Shown here: positions 26,731 through 46,803 of the stretch, one piece after another
Layout: each line of letters opens with the position of its first letter
Position numbering within the stretch: position 1 is the first letter of the stretch
Virus record (IMG/VR): IMGVR_UViG_3300017991_000003
Coordinates: 128,001 to 192,000 of that record
Origin: a virus
Reading direction: 5' to 3' (one strand)
DNA length: 64,000 nucleotides
Translations under genes and position numbers: made by a program
The notes under the pieces: model-generated
Told to the model about the DNA's origin: nothing
What the model saw: the letters and a program-made list of their open reading frames with translations, nothing else
Database searches by the model: none

Positions 26731-26753
26731 GGGTGGTGTCAAGGGATGGGCGG

Positions 26754-28145: not shown

Positions 28146-28186
28146 GGTTGGGTAGTGTTGTTAGGCGTTGGGGTTTACTGTGTGGG

Positions 28187-30534: not shown

Positions 30535-30592
30535 GCAATACTGCGACTGCGCCGAGATGGCCTGGCGGACCTCCTTCTCGCACGGTCGGGGG

Positions 30593-30916: not shown

Positions 30917-30953
30917 CGGTCTTGTCCTCCTTGGGGTCGAGCCAGGGGGCGGC

Positions 30954-31151: not shown

Positions 31152-31393
31152 CGCGGGCCCTCCTGCTCCAGGTGGGCGTCGATCAGGTCCAGCATTTCCA
31201 GGGCATCCTGGAGGGCTTCCTCCTTAGAGTAGCGCCACTCCCTCTCCCCGCTGTAGGAGAGGAAACCCTGCCAGAACCCGCCGGCCATGCGGTCGAGGCG
31301 GTCTCGGCGGACTTCTTTCGGAGATTGAGGGGCCGGCAGGACCCCCTCGGCGACGAGGTTCCTCACGACAAACTCAATGTCATTGCTATTCAT
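31148..31393 (-). CDS. hypothetical protein (81 aa)
   Basis: Track ORF; overlaps both neighbours. Confidence 0.45.
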   Translation of the reverse strand: MNSNDIEFVVRNLVAEGVLPAPQSPKEVRRDRLDRMAGGFWQGFLSYSGEREWRYSKEEALQDALEMLDLIDAHLEQEGPR

Positions 31394-31757
31394 CGCTTCC
31401 CCCCTGCTCCCCGAGGAGCGCGGCGAGGCGAGTTGAAACGGTAGCGGTGTGGTTCGTCTTCATTGGATACCCCACGTGGTGCAGGAAGGGTTGCAGCTGG
31501 AACAACACCTCCCGGGCCTCAAGGGCGTAGGCCAGGAGGGCGGGGGCGGCGGCAAGAAGTGCGACGAAAGCGTCCAACTCTTTACGAGGCACATCATGAG
31601 GCGCACTACACGACGCCATGAACTTGTTCTCCTTCGTGGGCTTGTCTAGCCGCACGGAGTCGCGAAGCGTGTAGATCAGGCGGTCTTCGACAAGGAGTTC
31701 GGGTATGTGTCCGGCCAGTGCGTCCAGGTCGAGCTCGTTGTAGTGGGTGGGGTTCAT
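31386..31757 (-). CDS. hypothetical protein (123 aa)
   Basis: Track ORF 31386..31826 trimmed to internal ATG (MNPTHYNELDL) so that the conserved upstream motif is non-coding. Confidence 0.5.
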   Translation of the reverse strand: MNPTHYNELDLDALAGHIPELLVEDRLIYTLRDSVRLDKPTKENKFMASCSAPHDVPRKELDAFVALLAAAPALLAYALEAREVLFQLQPFLHHVGYPMKTNHTATVSTRLAALLGEQGGSDE

Positions 31758-31787
31758 TGTTCGGTCCGTGGTAAGAGAAACAGGCGT

Positions 31788-31805
31788 CAGTGGACTTATG
31801 CCACG
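31788..31805 (-). promoter_or_regulatory. GKCATRAGTC motif copy 4 (GGCATAAGTC on minus strand), ~35 nt upstream of start at 31757
   Basis: Same decamer and spacing as copies at ~4391, ~14248 and variant at ~15912. Confidence 0.4.
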
Positions 31806-31838
31806 GACGCCTGCTCTATCTGGCACTGGTACCTAGTG

Positions 31839-32039
31839 TCAGCCTTCGTACAGCTTCTGGACCGATGTCCCCAGCGCCTTGGCGATCTTGCTCATGGTCG
31901 GCCACTTAGGGATGAAGCGGCTGTGCTCGGCAGCGTTGATGTACTGACGCTCTTTACCTACACGTCGACCCAGCTCAGCTTGGCTCATATTTTTAGCCTC
32001 GCGTAGCTGGGCGATTCGATCTCCGGGGGAGTCACTCAT
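31839..32039 (-). CDS. XRE-family helix-turn-helix transcriptional regulator (66 aa)
   Basis: MSQAELGRRVGKERQYINAAEHSRFIPKWPTMSKIAKALG matches the Cro/C1-type HTH pattern; lies immediately upstream of the promoter-like motif. Confidence 0.65.
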   Translation of the reverse strand: MSDSPGDRIAQLREAKNMSQAELGRRVGKERQYINAAEHSRFIPKWPTMSKIAKALGTSVQKLYEG

Positions 32040-32043
32040 GGGG

Positions 32044-32901
32044 CTACAGCAGGCTCGAGAACTTCAGTTGATCACCCGCGATGCTGACCGTGGGCTCAAC
32101 GCCTGTGATCTCTGCGTAGGCAGAGACCATTCCAGCTAGCTCCATCACAGGTAGTACGTCCTTGTCGTTGTGGACCCAGGCCTGAAGACATAGGCGCCGG
32201 GTCCGGTTTTCTCCATGAACACCCGCGACCGTGGTCTGAAGGACGATCGACGGGCTTAGGAGGCCTAGATCGGCCAGCTGTCCCAGAATATTGCGAAGGA
32301 CTCCTGCGAGGTCCTTCTCCTCCGTGTTGGCAGGTTCCGCAGTATCGGGATCTTCCGCCTCGGTGTCCCACGAGCTGAGAGCGTCAAGCGTGTCCTCAGC
32401 GGCCAGAGGCTCGTCATCCTCGTCATCAGCCGGACCCAGGTCTGGGACAGGCCGGCGATCGCCAAGCTCGTTGAGCCACAACCACGTTGTGGCGTAGGCA
32501 ATAAGGACCCCCGTGTGGAACGGATGCTCCTCGAGCCTGCCGATCGTGTCTGCGATGCCGGGGAAGGCCTCGATCATTGCCTGAGCCAGCGGAGTCGAGG
32601 TCTCGGAGTGGCTTAGCTGATCATCGGCCTCGGCTTGATCACTGAGGGTAGGGCCTTCGACGCCGAGGCTACCGAAGGGGTTATCTCCAAACTCGGCCTC
32701 GAGGGCGCCGTGAATGTGTTGGAAGCCGGCAAGCCGTCCGCGGGTCTCATCATCACCGTCAGGACCGAAGCCCTTGGCAATCTGCCCGAGCAGAGGGAAG
32801 TCCTGACTGGTGAGCGAGATATCGAGAGAATCGAGCTCGTGCTCGGGATTACGCGGCGGGTCCGCCAGGGCGATGGCGTTGATGAGTGGTTGGATGTCCA
32901 T
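32044..32901 (-). CDS. hypothetical acidic protein (285 aa)
   Basis: Track ORF; Asp/Glu-rich; first gene of the leftward block, divergent from the structural operon. Confidence 0.55.
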   Translation of the reverse strand: MDIQPLINAIALADPPRNPEHELDSLDISLTSQDFPLLGQIAKGFGPDGDDETRGRLAGFQHIHGALEAEFGDNPFGSLGVEGPTLSDQAEADDQLSHSETSTPLAQAMIEAFPGIADTIGRLEEHPFHTGVLIAYATTWLWLNELGDRRPVPDLGPADDEDDEPLAAEDTLDALSSWDTEAEDPDTAEPANTEEKDLAGVLRNILGQLADLGLLSPSIVLQTTVAGVHGENRTRRLCLQAWVHNDKDVLPVMELAGMVSAYAEITGVEPTVSIAGDQLKFSSLL

Positions 32902-32989
32902 GGGCTGGTCTTAGGAGGAAGGCCTGGCTCGCAGTGCAAGATAGACACCGCTACGAGGCTTGTCAACATTCCTATACGACCTTCTAGGC

Positions 32990-35047
32990 ATGGTTCCTGG
33001 CCGACTCGGTGTCTATAATCCGTTGAGCCTGCGCACCTTAGACCCGGAGCACGCAAACAAGATGGCGGCCGAAACTCCGAATAGGTTCAGTGTCCCAGTT
33101 GAGACGCTGATCCTTCAACTGCTCGAGGAGCAGCACCCTCAACTACATGTCGCCCCCGGGTCGGCTACCTATGACACCCTCGTCACCCCGATGGCGTTGG
33201 TGCTTCAGCCGTTCCGCGACTACCTGCGCGTGATTCAGAGGAACCAGAGCCTCAAGAACGCGCAGACCATGCTGCCCGAGGAGCTGGACCGCCTGGCCAG
33301 TAACTTCCTGGTCGACCGTCGCCAAGGTACCAAGGCACTCGGGGTTCAGCGGGTGCTTTTCCCCACGCTCCAGCAGGTGTCCGTGCCGGCTTCCGCGCGC
33401 TTCACGGACGACAACGGCAACAGGTACCAGCCGGTGACCTCGGTTCAGGTGAGCACCACCACCTTGGCTAATAACGTGGTGGCTGCTACCGGGGAGTACT
33501 ACGTGGATGTCCCGGTCATCGCTGAGCAGCCTGGGGAGGGCAGCGCCGCCCTCGCCGGGGCTGTGACCCAGTTCAGCGGTATTCCCGGAGCGGCACGTAC
33601 GTTCAACGCGTCTGACTACTTCCAGGGCTCGGCTGGCGAGAGCAACAGCCAGCTCGTGGCCCGCATCAAGAGCAGTGTGGCTAACCGAGAGCTGGTCAAG
33701 GCCGCCTCGATCGAAGCCCTCCTGCTTGAGACTTTCCCCAGCATCAGGGACCTGGCTGTCCGGGGCTATGGGGATAGTCTGATGACCCGCGATACGGTGG
33801 ATGTGGTCCTGGCCAGCCACAAGCTGTTCGAGCAGAGCTTTGCCCAGAAGGTGAACCTACCTCTGGACTCTGAGGGCGAGGTTCAGTGGATCACGGACGC
33901 TGGAGAGGAGATCACGGCCCCCATCGGCGGGTTCGTGGGCGCTGTCTACGACCTGACGGGTAAGGACTTCAACGCCCTCAACGTCACCTTGGACGGCCAG
34001 ATCTACGAGGTCGTGAGTGCCCAGCCGGGCAACAAGCTCCGCTTCCTGAACTCGGACGACCCCGACGCGGTCAACAACGATTACCGCATCACCCGCGTCG
34101 AGGAGGTGCCTGTGGCCCCCGGCGGGGACGCTGTGAAGGTCTTGCGGCTCGATCGAGCGCTCTCTGATACCGCTGAGGTCGACGTCTCCACCAATCTCGA
34201 CAGCGTGCCGTATACCGTGATCGGCCGGTTCAATACCAGCCGCTTCCATGTGGGCGGTAAGGTGGATGTCTACGTGGACTCCACAGCTGATATCGAGCAG
34301 ACGGTCACGGTCAGCAACCTACCCGCGGTCAACGACCAGACCCTGGATGTGGGCGAGATCCCGCTGACTCAGAGCTTCATCAACGACAACGGCGCCAACC
34401 TTTTCGAAGGTAACACAGGCTTTACAGCTCCGGTAATCGCTGTGACCAAGGTCGAGCAGCTGGATCCCACCAACAGCAGCGTAGTGATTCGGGAGCTCAC
34501 CCCTGACGTCCACTACGTCCAGGTCACCGCAGCGAGCCGCGGCCGCTTCACGCAGGCCACCAACGACGTACTGGTCATCCGAGGTACCGAGGTTGACCCA
34601 GTCACCGGCGAGGAGGTCCCTCTCTTCGTGGGGCAGCGGCTCAAGGTCACCTACATCACCAACCCGGACATTCCTTTGATTCAGGACTTCGTAGATGCCT
34701 CGGATCAGAGGGACTTGACCAAGGACATTCAGATCCTCACGCCGACCGTGGTGCTCTTGAATCTGGATCTTGAGTACGCAGGTACCTTGCCTGTGGGTGA
34801 TGTTCAGACGATCATCAGGGAGTACATCGAATCCAAGGGCCTCGGCGCCTCGGTCTCGGTGAACGAGATCGTCACGGTCCTCTCTTACTTCGGGGTTACG
34901 GACGTCACCATGCCGGTACGCCTACGCAGCCGACAGGCCACAGGAAGCGGCTCCTTCACTTTCAACGAGAGCGAGGATCGCCTCTCCGTCGACAGCAACT
35001 CGGTGTTCGTGCCTGACTCGGGCCTGAACATCACCAAGGTCGGGTAA
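32990..35047 (+). CDS. putative baseplate-type structural protein (assignment tentative)
   Basis: Long ORF directly preceding the giant fibre gene; start ambiguous (track TTG 32960, ATG 32990, ATG 33062); baseplate call based on gene order and loose resemblance only. Confidence 0.5.
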   Translation: MVPGRLGVYNPLSLRTLDPEHANKMAAETPNRFSVPVETLILQLLEEQHPQLHVAPGSATYDTLVTPMALVLQPFRDYLRVIQRNQSLKNAQTMLPEELDRLASNFLVDRRQGTKALGVQRVLFPTLQQVSVPASARFTDDNGNRYQPVTSVQVSTTTLANNVVAATGEYYVDVPVIAEQPGEGSAALAGAVTQFSGIPGAARTFNASDYFQGSAGESNSQLVARIKSSVANRELVKAASIEALLLETFPSIRDLAVRGYGDSLMTRDTVDVVLASHKLFEQSFAQKVNLPLDSEGEVQWITDAGEEITAPIGGFVGAVYDLTGKDFNALNVTLDGQIYEVVSAQPGNKLRFLNSDDPDAVNNDYRITRVEEVPVAPGGDAVKVLRLDRALSDTAEVDVSTNLDSVPYTVIGRFNTSRFHVGGKVDVYVDSTADIEQTVTVSNLPAVNDQTLDVGEIPLTQSFINDNGANLFEGNTGFTAPVIAVTKVEQLDPTNSSVVIRELTPDVHYVQVTAASRGRFTQATNDVLVIRGTEVDPVTGEEVPLFVGQRLKVTYITNPDIPLIQDFVDASDQRDLTKDIQILTPTVVLLNLDLEYAGTLPVGDVQTIIREYIESKGLGASVSVNEIVTVLSYFGVTDVTMPVRLRSRQATGSGSFTFNESEDRLSVDSNSVFVPDSGLNITKVG
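33015..33024 (+). promoter_or_regulatory. candidate -10 element TATAAT for the rightward structural operon
   Basis: Perfect TATAAT in a GC-rich divergent region ~40 nt upstream of the ATG at 33062; no convincing -35; could instead lie inside the CDS if the start is 32990. Confidence 0.25.
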
Positions 35048-35053: not shown

Positions 35054-38000
35054 ATGACTTCGGACAAGGTCTTTCAGTCGGACTCGCTCTTCGACTACCT
35101 CCCCAGCTACTGGAAGAGCTCGTTCGGCGACCGCCCGGTCCTCGAGACGGTCTACGAGGCCCTCGTGCGGTCCATGGACGTGGACTGGGTGCGCCTATTC
35201 GCTGCTAACGACACGCGCGAGCTCGCCACCACTCCTGTCACCACCACCCACACGCTAGTCCACCAGCCTCTGGGCAGCTGGACGAGCCTAGAGGTGGCTC
35301 ACGGTCACTACCATACGTGGCTGGACTGGCCGGCGGCCACTGGGAGCCCCGAGACCTATGTGATTCGACTGGAGGACCACGTCCTCACGCGTCCGCGGCT
35401 GTTCTTCGACGGCCGGGCCATCCCCAGCTTCCTCTATCGCCTGGATACGAGCCACTGGTCTAGTGGCGGCTCGGTGGTCTACGGCACCACCATCACGTTC
35501 GACAAGGCTCAGCTCGATTCCTTCCTCGACGGTAGCTATCTGAGCCTGCAAGGCCAGTCAGGCGAGAATACGAGCCAGGAGTGGACCCCTGCTGATGTCA
35601 TCGAGCGGCTCGGGATCCTCGCCTACAGGGATCAGCGCCCCTTCACGGGGTCTGGAGACGCCTCCACCACCGCGTTTGAGTTCACGATCGGAGGGTCCGC
35701 GGCTGTCGTAGAGGCTTTTGACGCAATGGCTTACGTCGAGAGCATCGACGTCACAAGCCGTGTCACGGTCGCCGCCGTTACAGGCGGTTTCAGCATCACT
35801 CCCAAGCCCGCAGGCGGCTTTGGGGCCGGGATGCTGCTTCAAGCCACGTTTGACGACGACTCCCAGCAGCTCGTTGAGCTCGACAGCGGTACCGGTTCTG
35901 TGACACTACGAACCAGTGCCAGCTCCGTGACTGGGGTTCGGCTCTTCGTGAACATCCCCCTGGGGGAGCAGCACTACACCGTCACCTCGAGCGCTGTTGA
36001 GCTGCTCGGTGGCGCTGTGTTCCCTGGCGGTACGATCCTCAGAGTCAAGGACGCCAAGGGCATCCAGTCCAAGACGCTCACCGAGCCGCGCTCCCGGGTC
36101 ACCTTTGACCGGGACATCGACACCAACAGCGCTCAGGTCCTCTACCAGGGCACCGATGTGCTCGCCACCGAGGTCTCGACCAGCGGCATCACCTTCGAGC
36201 GCCCCCTCAATAGCGGCGCCCGATGGCGTGTGGATGCTCCTGTGGTGGTGGATCACGACCACGCCCTCTACCGCACAGCTACGGACGGTACGGCCAACAT
36301 CGCTATCCCCACGGCCCGCCCGCTGACACTGGCAGGCAGTGCCACAGATGAGGATTACCCCATCCTCCTGTTCGTGGACGGCGTGCTTCAGGACCCGAGC
36401 ACCTACAGTCCCAGCTCCACGGTCAACCTGGTCCTCCAGTCGCCGCTCCCCTCGGGAATCCCAGTGGATGTGTGGTACGTGGACCAGGAGGAGCCGGCTG
36501 AGCACCTGCACAGCGAGCTCAGTGATGTGGTCCCCCTCTCGGTCCCCGAGCAGTACAGCGTCAGCTACAGTCAGGCTGAGACCTTCGACGACACCACCTG
36601 GCCCCTCACGGTCTTCAGGGACGGCTTCCTGGAGAACGACCCTGACCAGATCCGCACGGTCGACGGCCAGTTCCTTCAGTTCACTGACGCGCTGACCCCG
36701 GGCATCAGGGTGGCGGCCGACGGTCTGCGCACAGAGTTCCGGTACGCCCACACCATCCCCCATAGGGAGGACCTGGACTACGGCTACCGTGGGGACATCC
36801 AGGAGATCGGCACGCTCCAGGACGGGGTGATGAGCCCCAGCTCGGTCAAGAGCCCGGACACCGGCTTCAGCCTCACCCCAGCGGCCAGCCCGGCTGAGAC
36901 AGCTACCCTCAAGGCGTCCATCACCTGGGACGAGGCGTGGCTAACCGGTGTGAAGGTGGATGAGCACCTGCTCGAGACCACCTGGGGTGATCCTGTGGGT
37001 ATCAAGCGACCGGTCAGCTCGACCCGCTACCGCAACCTGCTCATGGCTGTGTACGCAGCCTACCGCGGCCCCAGCTTCGTCGACAGCCTCGTCAACGTCA
37101 GCTCTATCCTCCTAGGCTCGGCCTTCCTACCCACCGCTGGCGTGAGTGGGGGCATCACGCGCTCCTCCACCGGCGTCCAAGTCCTCATCGAGCCCACGGA
37201 CCCCAAGGAGAGCCCGTACACCGTTGACCTGCTCCCTGGTGAGGAGCATCGCATCCTGCCGGCTCCCCGTGAGATGTCTCGGCTCCGCGCGGTCAACAGC
37301 CTCGCCACTGTTAGTGACCGTAGTCTGGACGACATCCCCTGGCTCGCCTTCATGGCCCAGGACGTGGCTGAGGACTACTCGTACGCCAAGCGGCTGGATG
37401 TCAGGAGCTCGAGCAGCTTCAGCAGCATCCCGGCCGGCTACGACAAGACCACCGGCCACCTCACCGACTACAGCGTCAACTACAACGACCAAGAGGTGTG
37501 GGTCGGTGATCTCATCAAGCTGACACTGGTTGCCAGTGCCAGTCCCACGTCTATCATTCAAACCTACACGAGTGATGGCACGTCTCCTCAACAGGTGCAG
37601 CGGCTCGTCTACGACTCGAGCCAACCGACAGCCCGCCTCAGGGCGCATGTCGCCTCACCGGCGGTAAGTACTTACAAACCCGGCCATTACGTCAATCTAG
37701 AGGGTGCTGGGAGCCCCTGGGACACCCTCACCGGCGAGTACTACCAGCTCACCAACGTCAGCCCCGGCTACGCAGCTAGCACTACCAGGCTCACGGCTGA
37801 GTGGATCAGCAGTCACGCTGCTCCCACCATCACGGCTGTCGACTACACGGCGTCTCCTTATCCCGAGCTCCAAGGCTACAACCTCAGCCAGAGCACGAGC
37901 ACGCCTGACTTCCAGTCCTACACGCAGTTCACCACGGTGCAGGAGGTCCTCGGGGATCACACCATCCGGGTGAGCTTCGACGCTACCAGTGAGGTCACCG

Positions 38001-41000
38001 GCTACGGCGATGAGACTTACGGTGAGCTAGGCTTCGGCGGTGGGGTGCTGGACCCTGTGCCCTCGGCCTACACCATCTGGAGCCGGCGCACCCGCCAGCT
38101 AGACACCTACCTATCCCTGGACCAGGCGCTCGATGAGAGCGTGGCCCTGGTCCCTGGTGAGACGGTCCAGATCCTCAACGAGGAGCTCAGCGCTCTCCTG
38201 TCCACCCACGTCTTCGCCATGGAGCTAGCGTGGGATCGGATGACGGACCGGGAGACCCTGGAGGACCTCAAGGTCGTCATCGACCGCATCCGGCCTGCTG
38301 AGACGCGCGCCCTGGTCTACACCGAGGGCTTCCCGACCCTCAGCCTGGAGATGACTGGCTCGCTCATCGGAGGCAGCCCCGACATCACCGAGACCCTGGC
38401 CGACTCGCTCTTCCTGGAGGAGAGCTGGATGGGCACGGGGTCGACCGCACTGCTCACCCCGGAGCTCAACTACCTCTACCGCCCCTGGCAGCACCGCTTC
38501 GGTCCTCGCCTCGAGTCCCAGCTCAAAGAGCCGCCGGCAAGTCCTGTGGTGGGTGGCTTCTACGCCGTGGCTCCCGTAGGCCAGGCCAGCCATCTTGGCG
38601 TGTGGGCCAGTGTGTACGGATCCAAAGGCCTGGAGGGCCAGGTCCTCCGCCGCGGGTCCCCGGATGAGTGGTTGGTTGACAGCGGCTTCAGTCCCGCTCC
38701 GGGGTGGGCGCTCGATTTCAGCTCGGGTGTGCGCCGGCTCAACTCCGGCCCCTTCACCCACAACGAGGGCAGCCCGCTCACCATGCGGGCCCTGGTCTAC
38801 GTCCCCAGTGGTAGCTACAGCGAGGCAGGCACGGTCTATGTGGGCCAAGCGAGCCCCATGCTGCCCTTCGGCTTCGAGGTCCAGAGCCCTGGCCTGACCC
38901 TGGCGCCCTTCTTCCAAGTCCACAGCAGTGAGACCAAGGCACTGGGTAGCCCCACCAACTACTACGACCGCTGGCTGGATCTGGTGGGCGTGTACCGAGA
39001 GGGTGCGGCCAGCTACTGGTACACCGACCTGTACCTGGATGGGACGCTGATCGCCACGAGCAGCCCCACGGGCGCCGCGTCTCTGACACTGGCTCCCAGT
39101 GCCACATTCAGCCTCACGCTGGGTGGCACGACCCAGTCGACCCCCACCCAGAGCCCCAGCTTCAAGGGCTACCTGGACGAGTACCGCCTGTACCTGGGTA
39201 CCGAGCTCTCGAGCCCCGAGATCACGACCCTGTACAACGCCGGCTCCCCTGTGATGCCCTCGATCGGGGTCACGGACGCTGGTAGCCCCATCGCACCGGC
39301 CGGGATCACCGCCTGGTACGTGGGCCAGGAGCATGATCCGGCTACGGTCATCGATCTGAGCGGTAATGGGTACAACGCTAGCCGCCAGACGGCCACGCTG
39401 GGCGACGAGAACCAGGACTGGCGGGTGGCCGGGTACCTTCAGACCCGCTACCGCCTCTTCGGCGACACCTACGAGATCAAGCTGGGCGGCTACTACGTCG
39501 ACCAGGGCAAGCTCACGACCACGCTGCTCGGTACGCCCCCGAGTCTGCTTAGCGACTCGCCTGACTCGCAGACCGCCGCTATCGATGCTGGCGGCCAGCC
39601 TCTCCTGATCCCCGGGGTCTTCGGCTTCAAGGACGTGGTCTACACGAACCAGACCCGCTGGCTGCACTACAAGGACCTCGAAGGCTGGATCATCACCCTG
39701 GCTAACCCCCAGGCGCCAGGCTCGGCTATCTCGGTGGACCAGGAGGGCAACCTAGGCTCCCAGAGCCCCACCACGGCCCTTGCCTCGCCCCTGAGCATCA
39801 CCGGTAGCCGCCTGACCCTCACCTGCGCCGCGGGTAGTGGTGGTGCTGTGACCCAGCTGGAGCTCGATGGTAGCCCGCTGCTGGTCAACACCCTCAAGGG
39901 CCAGCTGACCCAGTGGTCCTGCCGCTACCTGGGCAGGGGCTTCGAGCGTACTGTGAGCGAGGCCGGCAAGATCAGCCGCCCCGTGGCTCAGCCGTCCAAC
40001 TCCGACTTCATCTCCAAGGAGTCCGGGGACACGGCGATCCGCACGGCGAGCTACCTCGGCAACATCCAGGGCACGATGACCTACGACGGGACGCTCTACG
40101 ACTCGAGCGCCACCCGCCTGGACAAGCTCATGGAGGTCGGCTTCAACGCCAACCCCAACGTGATCCGCGTCGACGCCATCTTCGATCGGGATCAGAGCAC
40201 CAAGGACGGCTCCTGGTACAGCCAGTTCACCATGAGCCTGGTCCCGGAGCTCAACGTGGCCTGGCTCTACCAGCCTGGGGTCGACTCCGTGCCGCTCCCC
40301 GCCGTGTTCAACGGCGACGTGAACTACCAGACCAACTGGGTGGGTGGTGCGATCTACACCAACGCGGCCCAGGACAAGGCTGTGGGCGTGTTCCACCGCC
40401 GGCCGAACACGGATACGGGCTGGTTCCAGTCCCAGGTGCTCCCGGCCCCTGCGTCGGCTGTTTCCAAGAGCAGCCCGGGCAGCACGTCGTATTCGGTGCT
40501 CAACGATCAGGAGTTCCTGGGTGATTACCCCGGCGCGGCTGACAGCATCTGGCGCACGGAGCGCTACATCGTGTCCGGTACGCTCACAGAGGTCGTCGGG
40601 GGGTTCAACCAGCTCGCCTATGAGCTGGAAGGCATTGAGCCCATCGTTACGGGGCCCGAATCGGCCACCTACATCGAGTTCACAAGCCTCCCGGACCCTC
40701 TGACGCTCGGCGACACCTTCTCGGTGACCGCTCAGGCCTTTGGTCCGGGCGGGTTGATCGACCCGAACTTCGATCGGCAGGCCTATCTGACCCTCCTGAC
40801 GCCTGGTGGCACGCTCACGGGCACCACTACGGGTACGTTCGCCTCCGGTGAGGTCACGTTCAGTGGTCTCGAGGTCTCCCCGGGCGGTACCTGGTTCCTC
40901 CAGGTCGACTCGGGCGGCCTAGCGCCAGGCCAGGCAGCCATCCAGGTCAACAACCCCGCTCCGTACGCCTCGAACCCCACGGCTTGGGCCATCAGCCCGG

Positions 41001-44000
41001 CCCAGGTGCCTCTCACGCTGTACGGTACGGACTTCCTGGACACCTCGTTCGTGGTCTACTCGAACTGGGGCGGTACTCCGAGCCCCTATCCGTCGACGCT
41101 GACCTACGTGAGCCCGGGTGAGGTGCAGTTCACGCCTCCCCAGGAGATCCTGGACAGCTACCCGAACACGCTGACGCTCTCGGTCCACAACCCCGGGCCT
41201 GGTGGCGGCTCTACGGGTGAGCTCCCGCTTACGATCGGCAGCCCCGGCGTACCGAGCCCGGTTGTCCCGAGCCCCGTGGCCGACTTGCTGCTGTTCACGG
41301 CCCCGCCTAGCCTGCCCATCACCCCGCGCGTGGGTGAGAACACGCTGATTGGCGGTTATGCGGCGGACTCCACGCTGTCTCTGGCGCTGGATGTGGACGC
41401 TACGGGCGCCGTGACGGTCAGCCCGAGCGCCCAGCCGGCGGGTTCGAGCATCGGCGGCACCCTGACCCAGTCCCTGGGCGCCTCGATCCCCGGTTACGTG
41501 TTCTTCCCGAACCTAACCTTTGATACCGCAGGCACTTACACGCTCAACCTGGTCCACGAGAGCCCCGCGGTCATCGCCCAGACGCCGTTGGCGCTCAACC
41601 TGAGCGTCCTGAACCCGGTCCCGACGCTCACTAGCATCGACCCGGACAACATCGACCAGGGTGCGCAGACCCTGACGCTACGGGCGCTGGGCTCGAACTT
41701 CGTGAGCGGTGACTCCAGCATCTACTGGAACGGTCTCCAGCGGACCACGACCTATGTGAGCCCAGGTGAGCTACGTACTACGCTGACCGCGGCGGACTTC
41801 CTGGTGCCCCAGGTGGTGGGTGTGAAGGTCAACACGGCCCAAGGCGGTGGTGACTCGAGCACGATCCCCTTCACCATCAACGGCGCGCCTGGCTCTGGCC
41901 TCACTGAGGAGGACCTGAGCCCCACGATCATCGTCCTGAGCCCCTCGGCGTACCAGCGGGTGCTGCCCACGCAGGGTCCTGTGATCACTACCGAGGAAGG
42001 TGTGTCCCTGCACCGGGCCTTGGAGCAGACTGGCCTCGCTACGGCAGGCACTCCTATCCACGCCTACGACGGATCGGTGGGCGCTATCGAGGTCGTCGAG
42101 GTCCGAGCCGGTGCCTACAAGGCGATGGCCACCGGTGACGACGTCTTCAAGAGCGACAAGAACCGCAACGTGGCGGTCCCGCACGCGCCTGATTCCGACC
42201 ACCCGCTCATCATCCGAGCGGCCAAGTGGTCCGCGGCTCGTGCCCCTGAGCCGGACATGGTGGGTGATCCTGAGCCGTACGTGCTCGTGGCCCGTTTCCC
42301 TGACTTCGGTAGCGAGGACGTGATCTTCCACGACCGGTCGCTCGAGAGCAGTCATTGGCACTGGTACGACCCGATCCTGTTCCTGGGTAGCCGGGGCGGG
42401 ATGCTGATCGCCGACAACAAGATCTACGGCGCCAACGACCCCACCATCCCGTGGCTGGGCTGGCACATGTACCGGCCGAAGGTCCTGGGCCGCTACGACC
42501 ACCGGGTGTACCGCCTGGATTCGGATCGCTGGATCGTGGGCCCGGGCCCTGACACAGCCTCGATCACCCAGTACGACACCACGGGCGTCGAGATCAGCCC
42601 CAAGTCCTGGGACCTCGATGACCTGCACCGGGCTCGCTTCGGCAAGCGCCTGACCAGCTCCAACGGCATCACGTCGGGCTTCGCTTCGCTGACCTCGGTG
42701 CCTGCGGGCCAGATCACGGCCACCCACGTGGGCGTGTTCGGCAACGATGCGGACACGCTCTACCGCGTGGGCGTGGCTAGCACGGCCGGCGGCCTGATCC
42801 AGACCGATCTGGGTCTCCTGAGCGTCTTCTCGTCTGATGCGGCCCTGACGACTAGCGACTTCATCGCCTCGGCGCCCTTCGATCCCATCACGAGCCCCAA
42901 CCAGTACGCCAGCCCTCCGTCCCTGAGCTACAGCATGGACGTGACCTGGCAGTCCAGCAGTACGTTTGATGCTGTGCCCGGGGCCGGGGGTACGATCCAG
43001 TTCTACGACCGCAAGGATGACGAGACCCTGTCGCCCAGCACGCTGCTCACCGCGGGCGGTACGGTCAACGTGCCCCTCGAGCAGGGCATCGGCGCCGCTT
43101 TCATGGCCTTCACGGGCCGTGGCTGCTACGTCCTCAAGACCACGGTCAAGGACGAGTGGGGCAACCCGGTCCCCGACCCGGAGGACCCGGATAAAGATCT
43201 GACTCGGAACAGCATTATCCAGGTCACGAACCACGGGATGAGCGACAGCCCGACGAGCCTGGAGGTGGTCTATGACCTGCCTGATCAGGAGATGCTGTGG
43301 TTCTCCAACATCACCTGGGCCGCAGGGCAGAACATCGGCTTCATGGGCCCGTTCAGCCTGCTGCTGGAGGCGCGCACGAGCTCGGGCGCCCTCTCGATGG
43401 AGGTGGACGGTACGGTCCAGGTTCTGATCGACAGCTTCGAGACCGTGGAGGGCACCGCCATCGGCACGCCCTTCCTCTCCTCGAACGAGATCACGCACAT
43501 CATGCGCGGCGGGGTCTGCCACATCCGGGACCTGCACCCCTACATCACGAGCATCAACCCCGAGTCCTTCCAGGCGTTCCTGGATCAGAACTCGGCCTCC
43601 AACTACGCGATCCTCACCCTCACCCTCACGCCGTTCGGCACGGGCACGGGGCTAGACAGCCAATCTACTACTTACCAGATCGGCGTGTGGCCTCCGGGGG
43701 CCCAGCGCGGTGAGAGCCCGGGCTCGATCCCTGTGCCCTTCTCGGTCTATCCGTGGGGCGCGCGTCTGACGGACAAGGAGTGGCTAGGCCCGAACCTCAA
43801 CGAGTTCGCGCTCACTCTGGCGCCCTCGGACACGATCCAGGGCATGGAGAGTGGTGCACCGGTCAACGCCAAGGTCAAGACGGCTATCGGCCTGCCCTTC
43901 TGGGCCGGCTGGCCGGGCTCGCCTGGGCACCCCAACTACCGCCCGGGTTACGAGAACATCTGGCCCAAGCCCGAGCACACGCCTGGGCTCGAGTACATCG

Positions 44001-45274
44001 GCTACCCGACCTTCGACGTCCAGCCCAAGTGGGGTCTCGCGCCCTTCTACACGAGCGACTGGATTTTCGACGGCGGTGTGATCATGAACGTGGGCGTCGA
44101 GCATGGCGTCTACCTCCACAACACGGTCGGCGACACGCGCTTCAGCAACACGATCATCACTCGCGTGGGTCGGACGGCCATCCAGAAGGCCGATCGACGC
44201 ATCGAGAACCCCTACGACCCGGTCCTTGTCGGCACGGGCGGGGACACGGGCGGCCCAGGTCAGGGTCAGGTCATCTACCGCAACGTGCAGGCATCCGAGA
44301 CGGCGCTGAACGACGGTGGCGGGTCCTACACCATCGTGGGCCACGGCCCCGACGGGCAGATCACGATGGAGAACTGCTCCATCCGGCAGGGCTTCGACGA
44401 CCAGCTTGCCGCTCACCGCTACATCAGCGGCAACGGCATGTTCGGCACCATGTTGACGGTCTGGGGCGGCTGGTTCCCGGGCTACTCGGACCATAGCTTC
44501 TGCCTGACGGGCATGGGCTATCAGTTCGACGGCCTGCGCCGGTGGCATCCGTTCTTGCGTAAGGCCGACGGTAGTTCGGTGTTCACCAACGACGAGTACC
44601 TCACCCACCTGACCAACAAGTACGACGTGCTGGGTCTTTCGGGCGTGCTTGGGGACTACGGTGGTGTCCCGGTTCCGACACCTCCCCACTACACCAACCT
44701 GCTCTACGGCGCCCCGATGTTCTCCTACGGGGGCGTGCAGGACCTGGGCCTGACTCTGGGCCAGGAAGCGGCCGGTATTCGCGAGCCCGTCTTCACGGGT
44801 ACGGACGCGACCTACGGGATGGGTAGCCCCACCTACGCGAGCTTCCATCAGACGGGCACGCTCACGATCACGGGGTGCCTCTTCGAAGCTAACCACCCGA
44901 ACGCCACGAGCGACGCCGAGGTTACCTGGTCGCAGCCCCTGCCCAGCCTCAACCCCTACGGCTCGATCTACAAAGGCGGTACCTACAGCTCGGCGCCGGC
45001 GCTGCTCGTCAGTGACGTGCGCATCCTGACCCTCCAGGACAACATCATTCACCAGACGGGCAACCAGGCGATCCAGTTCGACGAAGTGGCCTACGTCTGG
45101 GACAGCCCCCAAGCCAAGGCCACGGGCAAGGCGACGAAGCTCATCACCAAGAACGCCGCTATCTGGCAGATCCTGGGCGGCAACAACGAGCTGATCTCCG
45201 CCGCGGTGGTCAAACGCTATGGCCAAGACGCTCCGGCGGAACTTGTGAGTCAGCTAACGAGCCCGAGCACCTAA
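35054..45274 (+). CDS. giant multidomain fibre/adhesin-like structural protein (3406 aa)
   Basis: Uninterrupted 10.2-kb ORF; LamG/concanavalin-like motif (FKGYLDEYRLYLGTELSSPEITTLYNAG), repeated IPT/TIG-like Ig segments (NPVPTLTSIDP...YVSPGE...), C-terminal beta-helix-like repeats (NIIHQTGNQAIQF); frequent [A/S/G]SP motifs. Confidence 0.8.
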   Translation: MTSDKVFQSDSLFDYLPSYWKSSFGDRPVLETVYEALVRSMDVDWVRLFAANDTRELATTPVTTTHTLVHQPLGSWTSLEVAHGHYHTWLDWPAATGSPETYVIRLEDHVLTRPRLFFDGRAIPSFLYRLDTSHWSSGGSVVYGTTITFDKAQLDSFLDGSYLSLQGQSGENTSQEWTPADVIERLGILAYRDQRPFTGSGDASTTAFEFTIGGSAAVVEAFDAMAYVESIDVTSRVTVAAVTGGFSITPKPAGGFGAGMLLQATFDDDSQQLVELDSGTGSVTLRTSASSVTGVRLFVNIPLGEQHYTVTSSAVELLGGAVFPGGTILRVKDAKGIQSKTLTEPRSRVTFDRDIDTNSAQVLYQGTDVLATEVSTSGITFERPLNSGARWRVDAPVVVDHDHALYRTATDGTANIAIPTARPLTLAGSATDEDYPILLFVDGVLQDPSTYSPSSTVNLVLQSPLPSGIPVDVWYVDQEEPAEHLHSELSDVVPLSVPEQYSVSYSQAETFDDTTWPLTVFRDGFLENDPDQIRTVDGQFLQFTDALTPGIRVAADGLRTEFRYAHTIPHREDLDYGYRGDIQEIGTLQDGVMSPSSVKSPDTGFSLTPAASPAETATLKASITWDEAWLTGVKVDEHLLETTWGDPVGIKRPVSSTRYRNLLMAVYAAYRGPSFVDSLVNVSSILLGSAFLPTAGVSGGITRSSTGVQVLIEPTDPKESPYTVDLLPGEEHRILPAPREMSRLRAVNSLATVSDRSLDDIPWLAFMAQDVAEDYSYAKRLDVRSSSSFSSIPAGYDKTTGHLTDYSVNYNDQEVWVGDLIKLTLVASASPTSIIQTYTSDGTSPQQVQRLVYDSSQPTARLRAHVASPAVSTYKPGHYVNLEGAGSPWDTLTGEYYQLTNVSPGYAASTTRLTAEWISSHAAPTITAVDYTASPYPELQGYNLSQSTSTPDFQSYTQFTTVQEVLGDHTIRVSFDATSEVTGYGDETYGELGFGGGVLDPVPSAYTIWSRRTRQLDTYLSLDQALDESVALVPGETVQILNEELSALLSTHVFAMELAWDRMTDRETLEDLKVVIDRIRPAETRALVYTEGFPTLSLEMTGSLIGGSPDITETLADSLFLEESWMGTGSTALLTPELNYLYRPWQHRFGPRLESQLKEPPASPVVGGFYAVAPVGQASHLGVWASVYGSKGLEGQVLRRGSPDEWLVDSGFSPAPGWALDFSSGVRRLNSGPFTHNEGSPLTMRALVYVPSGSYSEAGTVYVGQASPMLPFGFEVQSPGLTLAPFFQVHSSETKALGSPTNYYDRWLDLVGVYREGAASYWYTDLYLDGTLIATSSPTGAASLTLAPSATFSLTLGGTTQSTPTQSPSFKGYLDEYRLYLGTELSSPEITTLYNAGSPVMPSIGVTDAGSPIAPAGITAWYVGQEHDPATVIDLSGNGYNASRQTATLGDENQDWRVAGYLQTRYRLFGDTYEIKLGGYYVDQGKLTTTLLGTPPSLLSDSPDSQTAAIDAGGQPLLIPGVFGFKDVVYTNQTRWLHYKDLEGWIITLANPQAPGSAISVDQEGNLGSQSPTTALASPLSITGSRLTLTCAAGSGGAVTQLELDGSPLLVNTLKGQLTQWSCRYLGRGFERTVSEAGKISRPVAQPSNSDFISKESGDTAIRTASYLGNIQGTMTYDGTLYDSSATRLDKLMEVGFNANPNVIRVDAIFDRDQSTKDGSWYSQFTMSLVPELNVAWLYQPGVDSVPLPAVFNGDVNYQTNWVGGAIYTNAAQDKAVGVFHRRPNTDTGWFQSQVLPAPASAVSKSSPGSTSYSVLNDQEFLGDYPGAADSIWRTERYIVSGTLTEVVGGFNQLAYELEGIEPIVTGPESATYIEFTSLPDPLTLGDTFSVTAQAFGPGGLIDPNFDRQAYLTLLTPGGTLTGTTTGTFASGEVTFSGLEVSPGGTWFLQVDSGGLAPGQAAIQVNNPAPYASNPTAWAISPAQVPLTLYGTDFLDTSFVVYSNWGGTPSPYPSTLTYVSPGEVQFTPPQEILDSYPNTLTLSVHNPGPGGGSTGELPLTIGSPGVPSPVVPSPVADLLLFTAPPSLPITPRVGENTLIGGYAADSTLSLALDVDATGAVTVSPSAQPAGSSIGGTLTQSLGASIPGYVFFPNLTFDTAGTYTLNLVHESPAVIAQTPLALNLSVLNPVPTLTSIDPDNIDQGAQTLTLRALGSNFVSGDSSIYWNGLQRTTTYVSPGELRTTLTAADFLVPQVVGVKVNTAQGGGDSSTIPFTINGAPGSGLTEEDLSPTIIVLSPSAYQRVLPTQGPVITTEEGVSLHRALEQTGLATAGTPIHAYDGSVGAIEVVEVRAGAYKAMATGDDVFKSDKNRNVAVPHAPDSDHPLIIRAAKWSAARAPEPDMVGDPEPYVLVARFPDFGSEDVIFHDRSLESSHWHWYDPILFLGSRGGMLIADNKIYGANDPTIPWLGWHMYRPKVLGRYDHRVYRLDSDRWIVGPGPDTASITQYDTTGVEISPKSWDLDDLHRARFGKRLTSSNGITSGFASLTSVPAGQITATHVGVFGNDADTLYRVGVASTAGGLIQTDLGLLSVFSSDAALTTSDFIASAPFDPITSPNQYASPPSLSYSMDVTWQSSSTFDAVPGAGGTIQFYDRKDDETLSPSTLLTAGGTVNVPLEQGIGAAFMAFTGRGCYVLKTTVKDEWGNPVPDPEDPDKDLTRNSIIQVTNHGMSDSPTSLEVVYDLPDQEMLWFSNITWAAGQNIGFMGPFSLLLEARTSSGALSMEVDGTVQVLIDSFETVEGTAIGTPFLSSNEITHIMRGGVCHIRDLHPYITSINPESFQAFLDQNSASNYAILTLTLTPFGTGTGLDSQSTTYQIGVWPPGAQRGESPGSIPVPFSVYPWGARLTDKEWLGPNLNEFALTLAPSDTIQGMESGAPVNAKVKTAIGLPFWAGWPGSPGHPNYRPGYENIWPKPEHTPGLEYIGYPTFDVQPKWGLAPFYTSDWIFDGGVIMNVGVEHGVYLHNTVGDTRFSNTIITRVGRTAIQKADRRIENPYDPVLVGTGGDTGGPGQGQVIYRNVQASETALNDGGGSYTIVGHGPDGQITMENCSIRQGFDDQLAAHRYISGNGMFGTMLTVWGGWFPGYSDHSFCLTGMGYQFDGLRRWHPFLRKADGSSVFTNDEYLTHLTNKYDVLGLSGVLGDYGGVPVPTPPHYTNLLYGAPMFSYGGVQDLGLTLGQEAAGIREPVFTGTDATYGMGSPTYASFHQTGTLTITGCLFEANHPNATSDAEVTWSQPLPSLNPYGSIYKGGTYSSAPALLVSDVRILTLQDNIIHQTGNQAIQFDEVAYVWDSPQAKATGKATKLITKNAAIWQILGGNNELISAAVVKRYGQDAPAELVSQLTSPST
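39081..39106 (+). repeat. copy (c) of conserved element CTGACACT-N5-CCAGTGCCA embedded inside the giant CDS
   Basis: CTCTGACACTGGCTCCCAGTGCCACA matches the intergenic copy at 45321..45346 at 23 of 26 positions; encodes SLTLAPSAT. Confidence 0.55.
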
Positions 45275-45363: not shown

Positions 45364-46803
45364 GTGAAGAAGCTCCGATTCGCCGATGGCCTGAAGCCGC
45401 TCACGTCGGACATGGACTCCATCCATGACCTGACGGAGGATGCGCTGGGTACCGTGATCCAGGCCCTTACCAGCGGCTCCAGCGGTAAGGTGCTGTTCGA
45501 CAACGTACCGCCGTCCGGTACGTATGACTCGGGAACCGGTACGATCACGGTCACCGTCCAGGCGCAGTACTATGCGGTGGGTGGTGTGGTGCTTCAGCAG
45601 CCCGAGACCGAGATCAGCGTGGCGGCCGGCACGACAGACATGCAGATCGGCGTCTTCCTCGTGGCGGGGACGGAAGGCACTCAGGCTCTGCGGAACTTCC
45701 TCTCGATCGACCCCGATACCGCTCAGGTCATCCAGCAAGACCTCAACCATGAGATCTTCGTCTCGGACGCCTCCCGAGTGGTCCTGACAACGGTCTCCGA
45801 TCTTGTGTCCAGCGTGCCGGAGCCTACTCTGGCGGCTGACGACAGCGGCTGGGTCCGTGTGGGCACCCTCCGCTTTACCGTGGCTACGGGTGCCATTACG
45901 GTGTCGAAGAACACGACCGACGTGTACACCCTGCCGGGTGGTACGACGGTCCCGGTCGCAGACCATGGTGAGACCCACCTTCCGGATGGCGCTGATCCCC
46001 TCCCTGTGAGCGCCTTGAGTGGCGGAGCTTCGGGTGGTAGCACCGCTGGTCTACTCCCGGAGGGTGGTCTCACCGCTTTGCTAGACGCTGTGCAGTCCGT
46101 GCTCCCTGCGGACTCGGCGCCCTACATCCAGGTCCTGACGACCGGCGACAACTCGGTCGACGGCTCGGACATCGACTCCAAGACGGTCACCCTCGACCTC
46201 AAGCTGCACGAGTCGATCACCACCAAGGACTCTGGTGGCACAACCAAGCTCGCCGTCAACCACGCCCCGGCCTCTGCGCTGAAAGGCACGAGTGACAGGA
46301 GCGCGCGTGAGGACCACATCCACCCCCTCGTGGAGTCGGGGTTCATCTTCCAGCAGATCACCCTGGACCTCACCACGGACAAGCTCGGCACGGTTATTCC
46401 CTACACGGTGACTGCCGCGGCTTCCGGTCAGCCCACCGCGACCGTGGCCAAGATCCTCTCGGTCACGGCCATGTGGCAACCACCCAACATCAAGGCGGGT
46501 TACGAGAACCGCAGCGTGGATAGTGGCTGGAACGTCGTGAGCTACGCTGGCTCCCTGGGGACGCTGGGATGCCGCGCCCTTGTGACTGGCAAGAACACCT
46601 TCGAGCTCGAGGTCGGCACTCTCGGTGCTGCGCACGCCTCAGATGCGGCCATTCAGGCCATCAACGACTCGGACGGCGACGGCTCTGACGCCTGGACCAA
46701 CCCCATCTACCCCACAAGCGGCGAGTTCGCCAAGACCGGCAAGATCTTCCTCTTCGTGCTTGCCTTGCGGGCCGGCTCGGTGGTCCTTGAAGACGGTCAG
46801 TGA
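45364..46803 (+). CDS. tail-fibre-like protein (479 aa), GTG start
   Basis: Ser/Thr/Gly-rich fibrous composition; location after giant fibre gene. Confidence 0.65.
   Translation: MKKLRFADGLKPLTSDMDSIHDLTEDALGTVIQALTSGSSGKVLFDNVPPSGTYDSGTGTITVTVQAQYYAVGGVVLQQPETEISVAAGTTDMQIGVFLVAGTEGTQALRNFLSIDPDTAQVIQQDLNHEIFVSDASRVVLTTVSDLVSSVPEPTLAADDSGWVRVGTLRFTVATGAITVSKNTTDVYTLPGGTTVPVADHGETHLPDGADPLPVSALSGGASGGSTAGLLPEGGLTALLDAVQSVLPADSAPYIQVLTTGDNSVDGSDIDSKTVTLDLKLHESITTKDSGGTTKLAVNHAPASALKGTSDRSAREDHIHPLVESGFIFQQITLDLTTDKLGTVIPYTVTAAASGQPTATVAKILSVTAMWQPPNIKAGYENRSVDSGWNVVSYAGSLGTLGCRALVTGKNTFELEVGTLGAAHASDAAIQAINDSDGDGSDAWTNPIYPTSGEFAKTGKIFLFVLALRAGSVVLEDGQ

What the first reader, a model, noticed from the sequence alone, without database searches (positions are those of the whole stretch)
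35054..45274. 10.2-kb single ORF encoding a 3406-aa multidomain fibre/adhesin
One of the largest proteins expected in a phage-like element. It combines a LamG/concanavalin-like lectin motif, several IPT/TIG-type Ig repeats and a C-terminal beta-helix-like region suggestive of a polysaccharide-binding or depolymerase tip. Antisense ORFs over 400 codons inside it are high-GC artefacts.
Basis: partly seen in the sequence, partly recalled or inferred. Interest (0 to 1): 0.5.

Follow-up and report, generated by a model that had tools for sequence, protein, structure and literature searches.

The report
Giant phage baseplate arm protein
A real 3406-residue gene of an uncultured large phage encodes a giant tail protein that sits next to the baseplate wedge gene and carries a lectin domain, an Ig-like stalk and a sugar-enzyme-like beta-helix, most likely to grip or cut host surface polysaccharide.

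Summary
The ORF is exactly as described: 35054..45274, + strand, 3406 aa, with no stop codon. It shows a strong coding signature (GC3 0.85). Orthologues of 3435-4231 aa are uninterrupted in independent metagenome assemblies and always lie directly after a gp6-like baseplate wedge gene.

- LamG: Pfam Laminin_G_3 at 37.5 bits, above the 27.6 cutoff.
- Ig repeats: two duplicated two-domain units, each pairing an Ig-like domain with a TIG/CoaZ domain.

The long antisense ORFs are mirror artefacts of the sense GC3.

New here: the N-terminal ~1100 aa is the conserved part of a nearly orphan family, with 39 hits among 1.84 billion representatives. The distal part is modular, with 2 or 4 TIG units, and a 1774-aa relative lacks the stalk and helix. 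One block matches the syntenic gene of Vibrio phage D181.

My best reading is a baseplate-anchored arm occupying the gp7/gpI position, with a glycan-binding or glycan-cleaving tip. The gp7 equivalence is inferred from gene position and was not shown by any profile or fold match. Enzyme activity is untested.

Verdict: a moderately interesting new variant of a known kind.

The parts
32960..35047 (+). Upstream gene (695 aa): gp6/J-like baseplate wedge subunit. It is co-oriented with the giant gene and its stop lies 6 nt before the giant gene's ATG.
   Evidence: It matches phrog_6 'baseplate wedge subunit' at E 1.4e-17. Orthologues from relatives match Bacillus phage G gp188 'baseplate wedge subunit' by tblastn at E 2e-9. 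It precedes the giant gene in every relative.
35054..45274 (+). The giant gene: 3406 aa plus the stop codon.
35054..35278 (+). aa 1-75: family-wide N-terminal signature LF(D/S)YLPS(Y/I)W followed by a predicted long helix (aa 27-50). This is the proposed wedge-docking element.
   Evidence: It is conserved in all giants. The helix appears in the AlphaFold model, but at low confidence. By eye it resembles the N-terminus of Vibrio phage D181_0015. That resemblance is not significant on its own.
35303..36733 (+). aa 84-560: a run of small beta-sandwich domains inserted between the two conserved N-terminal blocks.
36911..37213 (+). aa 620-720: second conserved block, W..D..VDE..L...WG.P.G...SS..YR..L.A.YAAYRGPSF.DSL.N..SILLGSAF.
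   Evidence: It is invariant or nearly so in 5 family members. It matches aa 149-196 of the syntenic 974-aa protein of Vibrio phage D181 (hhalign E 0.0035, probability 9%). A spliced HMM scores that protein at 17.3 bits against 3.1 bits for the best decoy.
37922..38353 (+). aa 957-1100: conserved module of unknown fold. The stretch before it, aa ~830-955, is a lineage-specific insert absent from P0012 and P0013.
   Evidence: BLASTP layout shows 39-46% identity to P0012 and P0013.
38768..39223 (+). aa 1239-1390: LamG / concanavalin-A-like lectin domain.
   Evidence: Pfam PF13385 Laminin_G_3 scores 37.5 and 36.3 bits against a cutoff of 27.6.
39251..40753 (+). aa ~1400-1900: conserved beta-rich region of unknown fold. 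The truncated family member P0015 begins at the equivalent of aa ~1585.
   Evidence: Conserved in P0012-P0015. There is no Pfam or PDB sequence match.
40760..41323 (+). aa 1903-2090: Ig stalk unit 1, made of an Ig-like domain plus a TIG/CoaZ domain at aa ~1982-2069.
   Evidence: NCBIfam CoaZ_rpt_PGGG, a family HMM, and the duplication with unit 2.
41324..41893 (+). aa 2091-2280: Ig stalk unit 2, made of an Ig-like domain plus a TIG/CoaZ domain at aa ~2187-2280.
   Evidence: Bacterial surface proteins match only this stretch.
41891..45271 (+). aa 2280-3406: C-terminal module. It is a right-handed parallel beta-helix split by a ~450-aa insertion, with the proximal rungs at aa ~2330-2500.
42923..43225 (+). 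aa ~2624-2724: Ig-like beta-sandwich within the insertion in the beta-helix module.
   Evidence: AlphaFold model residues 345-445 are all-beta with pLDDT 60-83.
44021..44473 (+). aa ~2990-3140: beta-helix core shared with ~34 small (about 150-730 aa) proteins, several of which begin with signal-peptide-like sequences.
   Evidence: Exhaustive HMMER hits fall at query positions 705-850. Some of those proteins hit Pfam Beta_helix or Chondroitinase_B. Model pLDDT is 73-91 here.
44099..44185 (+). aa 3016-3044: EHGVYLHN...GRTAIQ, the most conserved motif of the beta-helix family and a candidate substrate or catalytic site.
   Evidence: H3017 and G3039 are invariant. K2992, W2993, E3016, Y3020, R3040, T3041, Q3044 and R3048 are at least 90% conserved in 40 sequences. 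The sequence was verified.
44843..45271 (+). aa 3264-3406: terminal beta-helix rungs and a C-terminal cap helix.
   Evidence: Model residues 985-1127 have pLDDT 60-95.

Best explanation
The gene encodes a virion tail protein of about 370 kDa. It is anchored in or on the baseplate wedge and projects a modular arm toward the host surface.

Shown:
- It is one real, conserved gene.
- It always directly follows, and is probably co-translated with, the gp6-like wedge gene.
- Its N-terminal ~1100 aa plus the LamG domain are the conserved part of the family.
- Its distal part is modular. It consists of two or four Ig-like + TIG units followed by a pectin-lyase-fold beta-helix, and a 1774-aa relative lacks both.

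Inferred:
- The N-terminal helix (aa ~10-50) and the block at aa 620-720 take the place of the gp7 / P2 gpI-class subunit. In known contractile baseplates that subunit bundles with two gp6-like subunits in each wedge. This would give about six arms per virion.
- The LamG lectin and the beta-helix bind, and possibly cleave, a host capsular, LPS or EPS glycan.
- The Ig units act as a spacer whose length is tuned to the thickness of the host envelope.
- Because the receptor-binding tip and the wedge anchor are one polypeptide, glycan engagement could be passed directly to the baseplate switch.
For: Reality and conservation of the gene.

Upstream gene is a baseplate wedge subunit: phrog_6 at E 1.4e-17, and Bacillus phage G gp188 at E 2e-9.

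Synteny of the wedge gene followed by the giant gene holds in six independent contig lineages, spanning GC 51-62%.

In the cultured phages carrying the nearest wedge homologues, the next gene is also a large protein. It is 1109 aa in phage G (gp189) and 974 aa in Vibrio phage D181_0015. D181_0015 shares the aa 628-674 block.

[quoted passage not shown] P2 and T4 show the same gene order.

Domain evidence:
- LamG.
- Ig/TIG.
- Beta-helix homology.
- Beta-helix fold.

Modularity of the distal part.
Against: No profile or fold evidence links the N-terminus to any gp7/gpI family:
- Pfam, NCBIfam and PHROGs scans were negative.
- hhalign against P2 gpI, T4 gp7 and phage G gp189 was negative.
- PDB profile searches were negative.

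The D181 link is short and weak (hhalign probability 9%).

Other limits:
- No sheath, tube or gp25-like gene was identified in the window, so even a contractile tail is inferred only from the wedge gene.
- No catalytic residues of a known lyase or hydrolase family were recognised, and Foldseek against the PDB found nothing significant.
- Presence in particles is untested.
Confidence: 0.55

Rival explanations
1. It is a conventional homotrimeric tail fibre or tailspike that hangs on the baseplate through an N-terminal adaptor domain. A separate, unrecognised small protein would then fill the gp7/gpI role.
Against: There is no room for a separate gene between the wedge gene and this one: the gap is 6 nt here, and in L013 the two ORFs overlap at their junction. 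The architecture is LamG, Ig and TIG beads, typical of monomeric strings. The closest sequence relatives of the helix are small stand-alone proteins of about 150-730 aa, not tailspikes. The conserved part is ~1100-1500 aa long, far larger than a fibre adaptor.
Confidence: 0.28
2. It is a virion protein located somewhere other than the baseplate (head or neck decoration fibre), or a non-virion secreted or lysis-time glycanase.
For: Ig-like, LamG and CoaZ/TIG domains are also common in capsid decoration proteins and bacterial surface proteins. The small homologues of the helix appear to be secreted bacterial proteins, with signal-peptide-like N-termini seen.
Against: The gene is strictly linked to the wedge gene in all lineages. 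It has no signal peptide. The conserved N-terminal module is shared with the gene after the wedge gene in a cultured Vibrio phage.
Confidence: 0.1
3. It is an assembly or annotation artefact in which several genes are fused into one ORF by chance in GC-rich DNA.
For: High-GC DNA gives long spurious ORFs. The antisense strand of this same gene holds open frames of up to 626 aa.
Against: GC3 is 0.85 in this frame only. The identical protein occurs in separate assemblies. Collinear orthologues at 31-56% identity, with almost no gaps, exist in genomes of 52-62% GC.
Confidence: 0.01

Closest known systems
T4 gp7 / P2 gpI / Vibrio phage XM1 gp17 class of baseplate wedge subunits (the single-copy partner in the (gp6)2-gp7 module)
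   Same: It is encoded immediately after the gp6/J-like wedge gene. It has a predicted helical N-terminus. It carries the peripheral, host-facing parts of the baseplate. Size is highly variable in the class: 176 aa in P2, 242 aa in XM1 and 1032 aa in T4.
   Different: No sequence, profile or fold match was obtained. It is 3.3 times longer than T4 gp7. It would combine in one chain what other phages split between gp7-like, adaptor and spike or fibre proteins. The proposed docking element is split by a ~570-aa insertion.
Phage tailspike / capsule depolymerases with a pectin-lyase-like beta-helix (e.g. HK620 TSP 2vji, Klebsiella Kp32gp38 9qrm, cyanophage Pam1 7eea, Geobacillus virus E2 ORF18 7chu)
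   Different: Sequence identity is only 4-15%. The helix is interrupted by a ~450-aa insertion containing an Ig-like domain. No trimerisation or chaperone module was recognised. Its sequence relatives are small proteins of about 150-730 aa with an EH..Y.HN / GRT..Q motif and no assigned function.
Vibrio phage D181 protein VPHD181_0015 (974 aa) and Bacillus phage G gp189 (1109 aa)
   Same: Each is the gene directly after the nearest cultured homologue of the wedge gene. D181_0015 shares the W..D.EVDE...G..(V/I)G....Y(K/R)..L...Y block.
   Different: They are a third of the size. No LamG, TIG or beta-helix similarity was detected. gp189 shows no significant similarity at all. Both are themselves unannotated.
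Bacterial surface proteins with CoaZ_rpt_PGGG / IPT-TIG repeats
   Same: The TIG/CoaZ domains share 38-49% identity with them.
   Different: The similarity covers only 6-8% of the queried C-terminal 1206 aa, which is under 3% of the whole protein. It is a shared stalk domain, not family membership.

Membership tests
Laminin_G_3 / concanavalin-A-like lectin (Pfam PF13385) | Profile match above Pfam's gathering score. | tested here: met
   aa 1239-1390 score 37.5 and 36.3 bits against a cutoff of 27.6 when scanned as segments. The match was missed when the whole 3406-aa protein was scanned.
IPT/TIG (Pfam PF01833) and CoaZ_rpt_PGGG (NCBIfam NF058597) | Profile match above the curated cutoff. | tested here: met
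   NF058597 scores 90 bits against a cutoff of 30, with two stretches. Pfam TIG itself reaches only 19.4 bits against 20.9 in this protein, but reaches E 5e-14 in family members.
Pectin-lyase-like right-handed parallel beta-helix superfamily | Right-handed parallel beta-helix fold. | tested here: met
Pectin-lyase-like right-handed parallel beta-helix superfamily | Sequence-profile match to Pfam Beta_helix (PF13229) or a related model. | tested here: inconclusive
   The window protein gives no hit. Its small homologues do: P0016 scores 27.2 bits against 25.9, and P0019 hits Chondroitinase_B at 26.3 bits against 24.
A specific polysaccharide lyase / glycoside hydrolase family (depolymerase) | Recognisable catalytic residues or membership of a CAZy-type family. 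| not testable with these tools
   Conserved EH..Y.HN and GRT..Q motifs were found. They could not be mapped onto any characterised active site, and the best structural neighbours span GH87, GH110, PL6, epimerases and tailspikes.
gp7 / P2 gpI-like baseplate wedge subunit | Gene adjacent to and downstream of the gp6/J-like wedge gene. | tested here: met
   The gap is 6 nt here. The same arrangement occurs in all relatives. The reference gene orders in P2 and T4 were checked.
gp7 / P2 gpI-like baseplate wedge subunit | Sequence or profile similarity to known members (Tail_P2_I, TIGR02242-type, T4 gp7). | tested here: not met
   NCBIfam, Pfam and PHROGs were negative. hhalign against P2 gpI and T4 gp7 was negative.
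gp7 / P2 gpI-like baseplate wedge subunit | N-terminal helix-turn-helix that bundles with two gp6-like chains. | tested here: inconclusive
   Helices are predicted at aa 10-13 and 27-50, but with pLDDT below 40. No complex prediction was available.
gp7 / P2 gpI-like baseplate wedge subunit | Physical location in the wedge, one copy per wedge. | not testable with these tools
   This needs cryo-EM or quantitative virion proteomics.
Baseplate wedge gp6 / Baseplate_J class (upstream gene 32960-35047) | Profile match to the family. | tested here: met
   phrog_6 at E 1.4e-17. tblastn of orthologues to Bacillus phage G 'baseplate wedge subunit' gives E 2e-9. Pfam, the PDB profile search and pairwise comparison with T4 gp6 were negative.

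The most novel reading that the evidence does not exclude
An uncultured clade of ~150-190 kb phages, possibly infecting Rhodobacterales, would have replaced the usual set of gp7-like subunit, adaptors and separate spikes by a single 3.4-4.2-thousand-residue polypeptide per wedge. One chain would then be at once the wedge core partner, a lectin, an Ig spacer of adjustable length and a monomeric beta-helix glycan enzyme. That enzyme domain belongs to a small family of uncharacterised small proteins, several of them with signal-peptide-like N-termini. This would be the largest gp7-class protein known and a direct mechanical link between glycan engagement and baseplate triggering. The arm may in addition be decorated at its conserved, over-represented Ser-Pro sites.
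Probability: 0.3. Interest if true: 0.6.

Novelty: new variant of a known kind. Interest (0 to 1): 0.4.

Why it matters
Receptor-binding proteins decide phage host range. Baseplate wedges are the conserved trigger of all contractile injection machines.

A family in which the wedge-position gene has grown to 3400-4200 residues, ending in a glycan-enzyme-like module, shows how far this subunit can be elaborated. It gives a marker gene for a clade of large, uncultured phages that has no cultured relative. It also defines a small, uncharacterised beta-helix family (EH..Y.HN / GRT..Q motif) worth testing for a new polysaccharide specificity.

It does not overturn any principle. Giant multidomain tail adhesins with lectin, Ig and beta-helix parts are an established theme.

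Tried and rejected
Family and structure-sequence scans that gave nothing useful:
- Whole-protein Pfam and PHROGs scans gave almost nothing. Only cutting the protein into 500-aa pieces revealed LamG.
- tblastn of the giant, the wedge protein and three neighbouring large proteins against 50,697 phage records found no match.
- IMG/VR pattern scans with the N- and C-terminal parts found none.
- PDB sequence and profile searches of four segments, of the wedge family, and of D181_0015 and phage G gp189 found nothing significant.

Word-indexed protein searches:
- The whole-protein query timed out.
- aa 1-1000 and the 5-sequence N-terminal alignment returned nothing.
- The C-terminal query returned only TIG repeats.
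- This tool missed family members that the exhaustive HMMER search later found, so its negatives are weak.

Tests of the idea, recalled from memory, that the N-terminus carries a P2 gpI / TIGR02242-type signature:
- NCBIfam scan of the first 150 aa of three orthologues.
- hhalign against P2 gpI, T4 gp7 and phage G gp189.
- PHROGs scan of five family members.
- A spliced-motif HMM.
- Only the Vibrio phage D181 neighbour scored, so membership is not claimed.

Structure prediction and other checks:
- Self-BLASTP found no internal repeats at E below 0.01. The Ig-unit duplication appeared only in a direct pairwise comparison.
- The fused-ORF artefact was considered and rejected (see rivals).
Full report
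**Observation.** Codon-position GC of 0.61/0.50/0.85 is the coding signature of this 63% GC genome. The ATG lies 6 nt after the stop of the upstream gene. No terminator-like site interrupts the gene.

The identical protein is encoded on ENA metagenome contigs from at least two assemblies (ERZ27256773, 174,660 bp; ERZ27256796, 39,895 bp). A search with the upstream gene found relatives at 77-78% identity in JGI, ENA and IMG/VR contigs. In each, the next gene is a collinear, uninterrupted giant ORF. The complete IMG/VR orthologue is 3435 aa, 56% identical and almost gap-free along its whole length. The gene is therefore real and constrained throughout, and the frameshift or assembly-error refutation fails.

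The antisense ORFs of 214-588 aa all sit in the one antisense frame whose first codon position mirrors the sense third position (GC1 0.83-0.91). No antisense open frame of 300 aa or more is present in the L006 and L007 orthologues, and L008 has only one of 327 aa.

**Domains.**
- *LamG.* Scanned whole, the protein gives almost nothing. Scanned in 500-aa pieces, aa 1239-1390 match Pfam Laminin_G_3 above threshold (37.5 bits against 27.6).
- *Ig stalk.* NCBIfam's CoaZ_rpt_PGGG model, a TIG-like repeat of bacterial surface proteins, scores 90 bits with two stretches. Pfam TIG is just sub-threshold here but clear in family members. The two TIG domains each follow another Ig-like domain, and the two ~190-aa two-domain units are a tandem duplication (32% identity, E 5e-6).
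- *C-terminal module.* I searched aa 2280-3406 exhaustively against 1.84 billion cluster representatives and found only 39 proteins at E of 0.001 or better.
  - Five of the hits are giants. P0011 (3440 aa), P0012 (4168 aa), P0013 (4231 aa) and P0014 (3636 aa) share the whole architecture. P0015 (2239 aa) lacks the N-terminal part.
  - Apart from one 1367-aa protein (P0018) that also carries a TIG unit, the rest are mostly small proteins of about 150-730 aa that match only aa ~2985-3130. Several begin with signal-peptide-like sequences. Some hit Pfam Beta_helix or Chondroitinase_B, and none has an NCBIfam name.
  - A 40-sequence alignment shows that the giant's helix is split. N-terminal rungs at aa ~2330-2500 and the core from aa ~2990 are separated by a ~450-aa insertion. 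The near-invariant motifs are KW, EH..Y.HN and GRT..Q...R.
  - AlphaFold with that alignment gave a mixed model (mean pLDDT 51.5), but the helix core and terminal rungs reach 70-95, and an Ig-like domain in the insertion reaches 60-83.
  - Foldseek on the whole model was negative.

The beta-helix call is therefore confirmed at the fold level. The enzymatic activity is not.

**Context.** The upstream 695-aa gene matches PHROG 6, 'baseplate wedge subunit', at E 1.4e-17. Its orthologues from more distant relatives hit Bacillus phage G gp188, annotated as baseplate wedge subunit (E 2e-9), and a protein of ~187-kb Vibrio phages. Nothing else in the neighbourhood matches any cultured phage, so this is a dark lineage.

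The order 'wedge gene, giant gene, ~470 aa, ~185 aa, ~780 aa' is kept in contigs of 149 and 183 kb with GC 52% and 59%.

A 189.9-kb contig binned with an uncultured Rhodobacterales MAG carries a wedge gene at 50% identity. It is followed by a 1774-aa gene whose start abuts the end of the wedge ORF. That gene is homologous to giant aa 3-1487 only, which is the N-terminal module plus LamG, with no Ig stalk and no beta-helix.

Among the giants, the number of TIG units is two or four, and a stretch at aa ~830-955 is lineage-specific. So the N-terminal ~1100-1500 aa is the constant part and the distal part is exchangeable. This is the pattern expected of an anchor plus a host-recognition module.

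**Mechanism.** In all studied contractile baseplates each wedge is built on a (gp6)2-gp7 module. [quoted passage not shown] It ranges from 242 aa (XM1 gp17) to 1032 aa (T4 gp7) and is encoded next to the gp6-like gene (PMC10457771, read; gene orders in P2 and T4 checked).

The giant gene occupies that position, with no room for another gene. All family members start with LF(D/S)YLPS(Y/I)W followed by a predicted 24-residue helix. They share a second strongly conserved block at aa 620-720.

In the cultured phages with the nearest wedge homologues, the next gene is also large: 1109 aa in phage G and 974 aa in Vibrio phage D181. The D181 protein shares the second block (hhalign E 0.0035; spliced HMM 17.3 bits against 3.1 for the best of several hundred decoys). 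By eye, it also shares the N-terminal motif.

I therefore propose that the protein is the gp7-position wedge partner. It would be extended into an arm made of beta-sandwich domains, a LamG lectin, an unknown ~500-aa module, an Ig spacer and a glycan-binding or glycan-cleaving beta-helix, with about six copies per virion.

This step is inference. Every direct test of gp7/gpI membership was negative or inconclusive. I give the baseplate-arm reading about 0.55. The conventional trimeric fibre or spike on an adaptor gets about 0.28, another location or role about 0.1, and an artefact about 0.01.

**Comparison and novelty.** Lectin, Ig and beta-helix modules on phage tail proteins are well known, so the kind is familiar. 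Four things are unusual:
- the size, 3.3 times that of T4 gp7;
- the apparent fusion of the wedge-position subunit with the receptor-binding and enzyme tip;
- the split beta-helix drawn from a tiny uncharacterised family;
- the near-orphan status of the whole family.

I rate it a new variant of a known kind, with interest 0.4.

**Limits.**
- aa 700-1240 and 1400-1900 were not modelled.
- The N-terminal model is unusable.
- No sheath or tube gene was identified in the window.
- The host assignment rests on one binned contig.
- The word-indexed homologue search returned nothing for sequences that do exist in the representative library (against 51), so its negatives carry little weight.

Noticed in passing
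window 17806-21594, 22716-23738, 35054-45274, 58761-63299 versus 32960-35047, 45364-46803, 53145-57377: The Ser-Pro dipeptide is bimodal among the large + strand proteins. It is 2.3-3.6 times over-represented in four of them: 36 observed against 10.1 expected, 8 against 3.4, 53 against 22.6, and 37 against 10.6. It is absent from others, including 0 against 7.0 expected in the 1410-aa protein and 0 against 2.6 in the wedge protein. The context is [A/G]-S-P-[S/G], with SPSP runs in 17806-21594. In the giant, 28 of 53 sites are conserved in the 56%-identical orthologue, against ~17 expected. The enrichment persists in most family members, including P0013 from a 52% GC genome (0 of 500 shuffles reach it), though it is weak in P0014. 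This may be a modification site or a linker signature. The cause is unexplained.
   Followed up: partly
window 9552-10229 and 11250-11987: There are weak PHROG matches to a galactose-3-O-sulfotransferase-like protein (E 4e-9) and to a 2OG-Fe(II) oxygenase / glucosyltransferase-like protein (E 5e-5). These are candidate protein- or glycan-modifying enzymes that might relate to the Ser-Pro sites. That link is pure speculation.
   Followed up: no
window 52078-53160, 53145-57377, 57381-58499: Three consecutive proteins carry, in their C-terminal parts and by eye, a 'G..CP(P/A)G(F/Y)' motif and His-x-His motifs (HDH, HSH, HTH), reminiscent of fibre-tip domains. BLASTP finds no paralogy between them.
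   Followed up: partly
window 50630-51346: A 238-aa protein within the row of structural-looking genes carries PAS domains, according to the precomputed Pfam listing for the identical contig. This is unusual for a phage tail module.
   Followed up: no
window 21591-22130 and 22150-22692: These are tandem paralogues of 179 and 180 aa, 33% identical (E 1e-21). The same pair of short genes sits between the 1262-aa and 340-aa genes.
   Followed up: no
window 5004-5090 and 5165-5250 (- strand): Two adjacent tRNA-Leu genes, with anticodons TAG and CAA.
   Followed up: no
window 26075-32901 (- strand): A block of small minus-strand genes, including an HTH protein, separates the 762-aa + strand gene from the wedge gene and so interrupts the + strand run of large genes. 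A similar but shorter minus-strand block precedes the wedge gene in the relatives L007 and L008.
   Followed up: no
L013 (CAZCPY010000001.1, 189,901 bp) 9995-17301: This is a contig binned with an uncultured Rhodobacterales MAG that is probably a whole phage genome. It is the only host hint for the clade. Here the gene after the wedge gene is only 1774 aa and lacks the Ig stalk and the beta-helix.
   Followed up: partly
L012 (Vibrio phage D181, OZ196140.1) 11947-16499: This cultured ~187-kb Vibrio phage has the nearest recognisable pair of wedge gene plus following gene (540 aa and 974 aa, both annotated as hypothetical). It could serve as an experimental proxy.
   Followed up: partly
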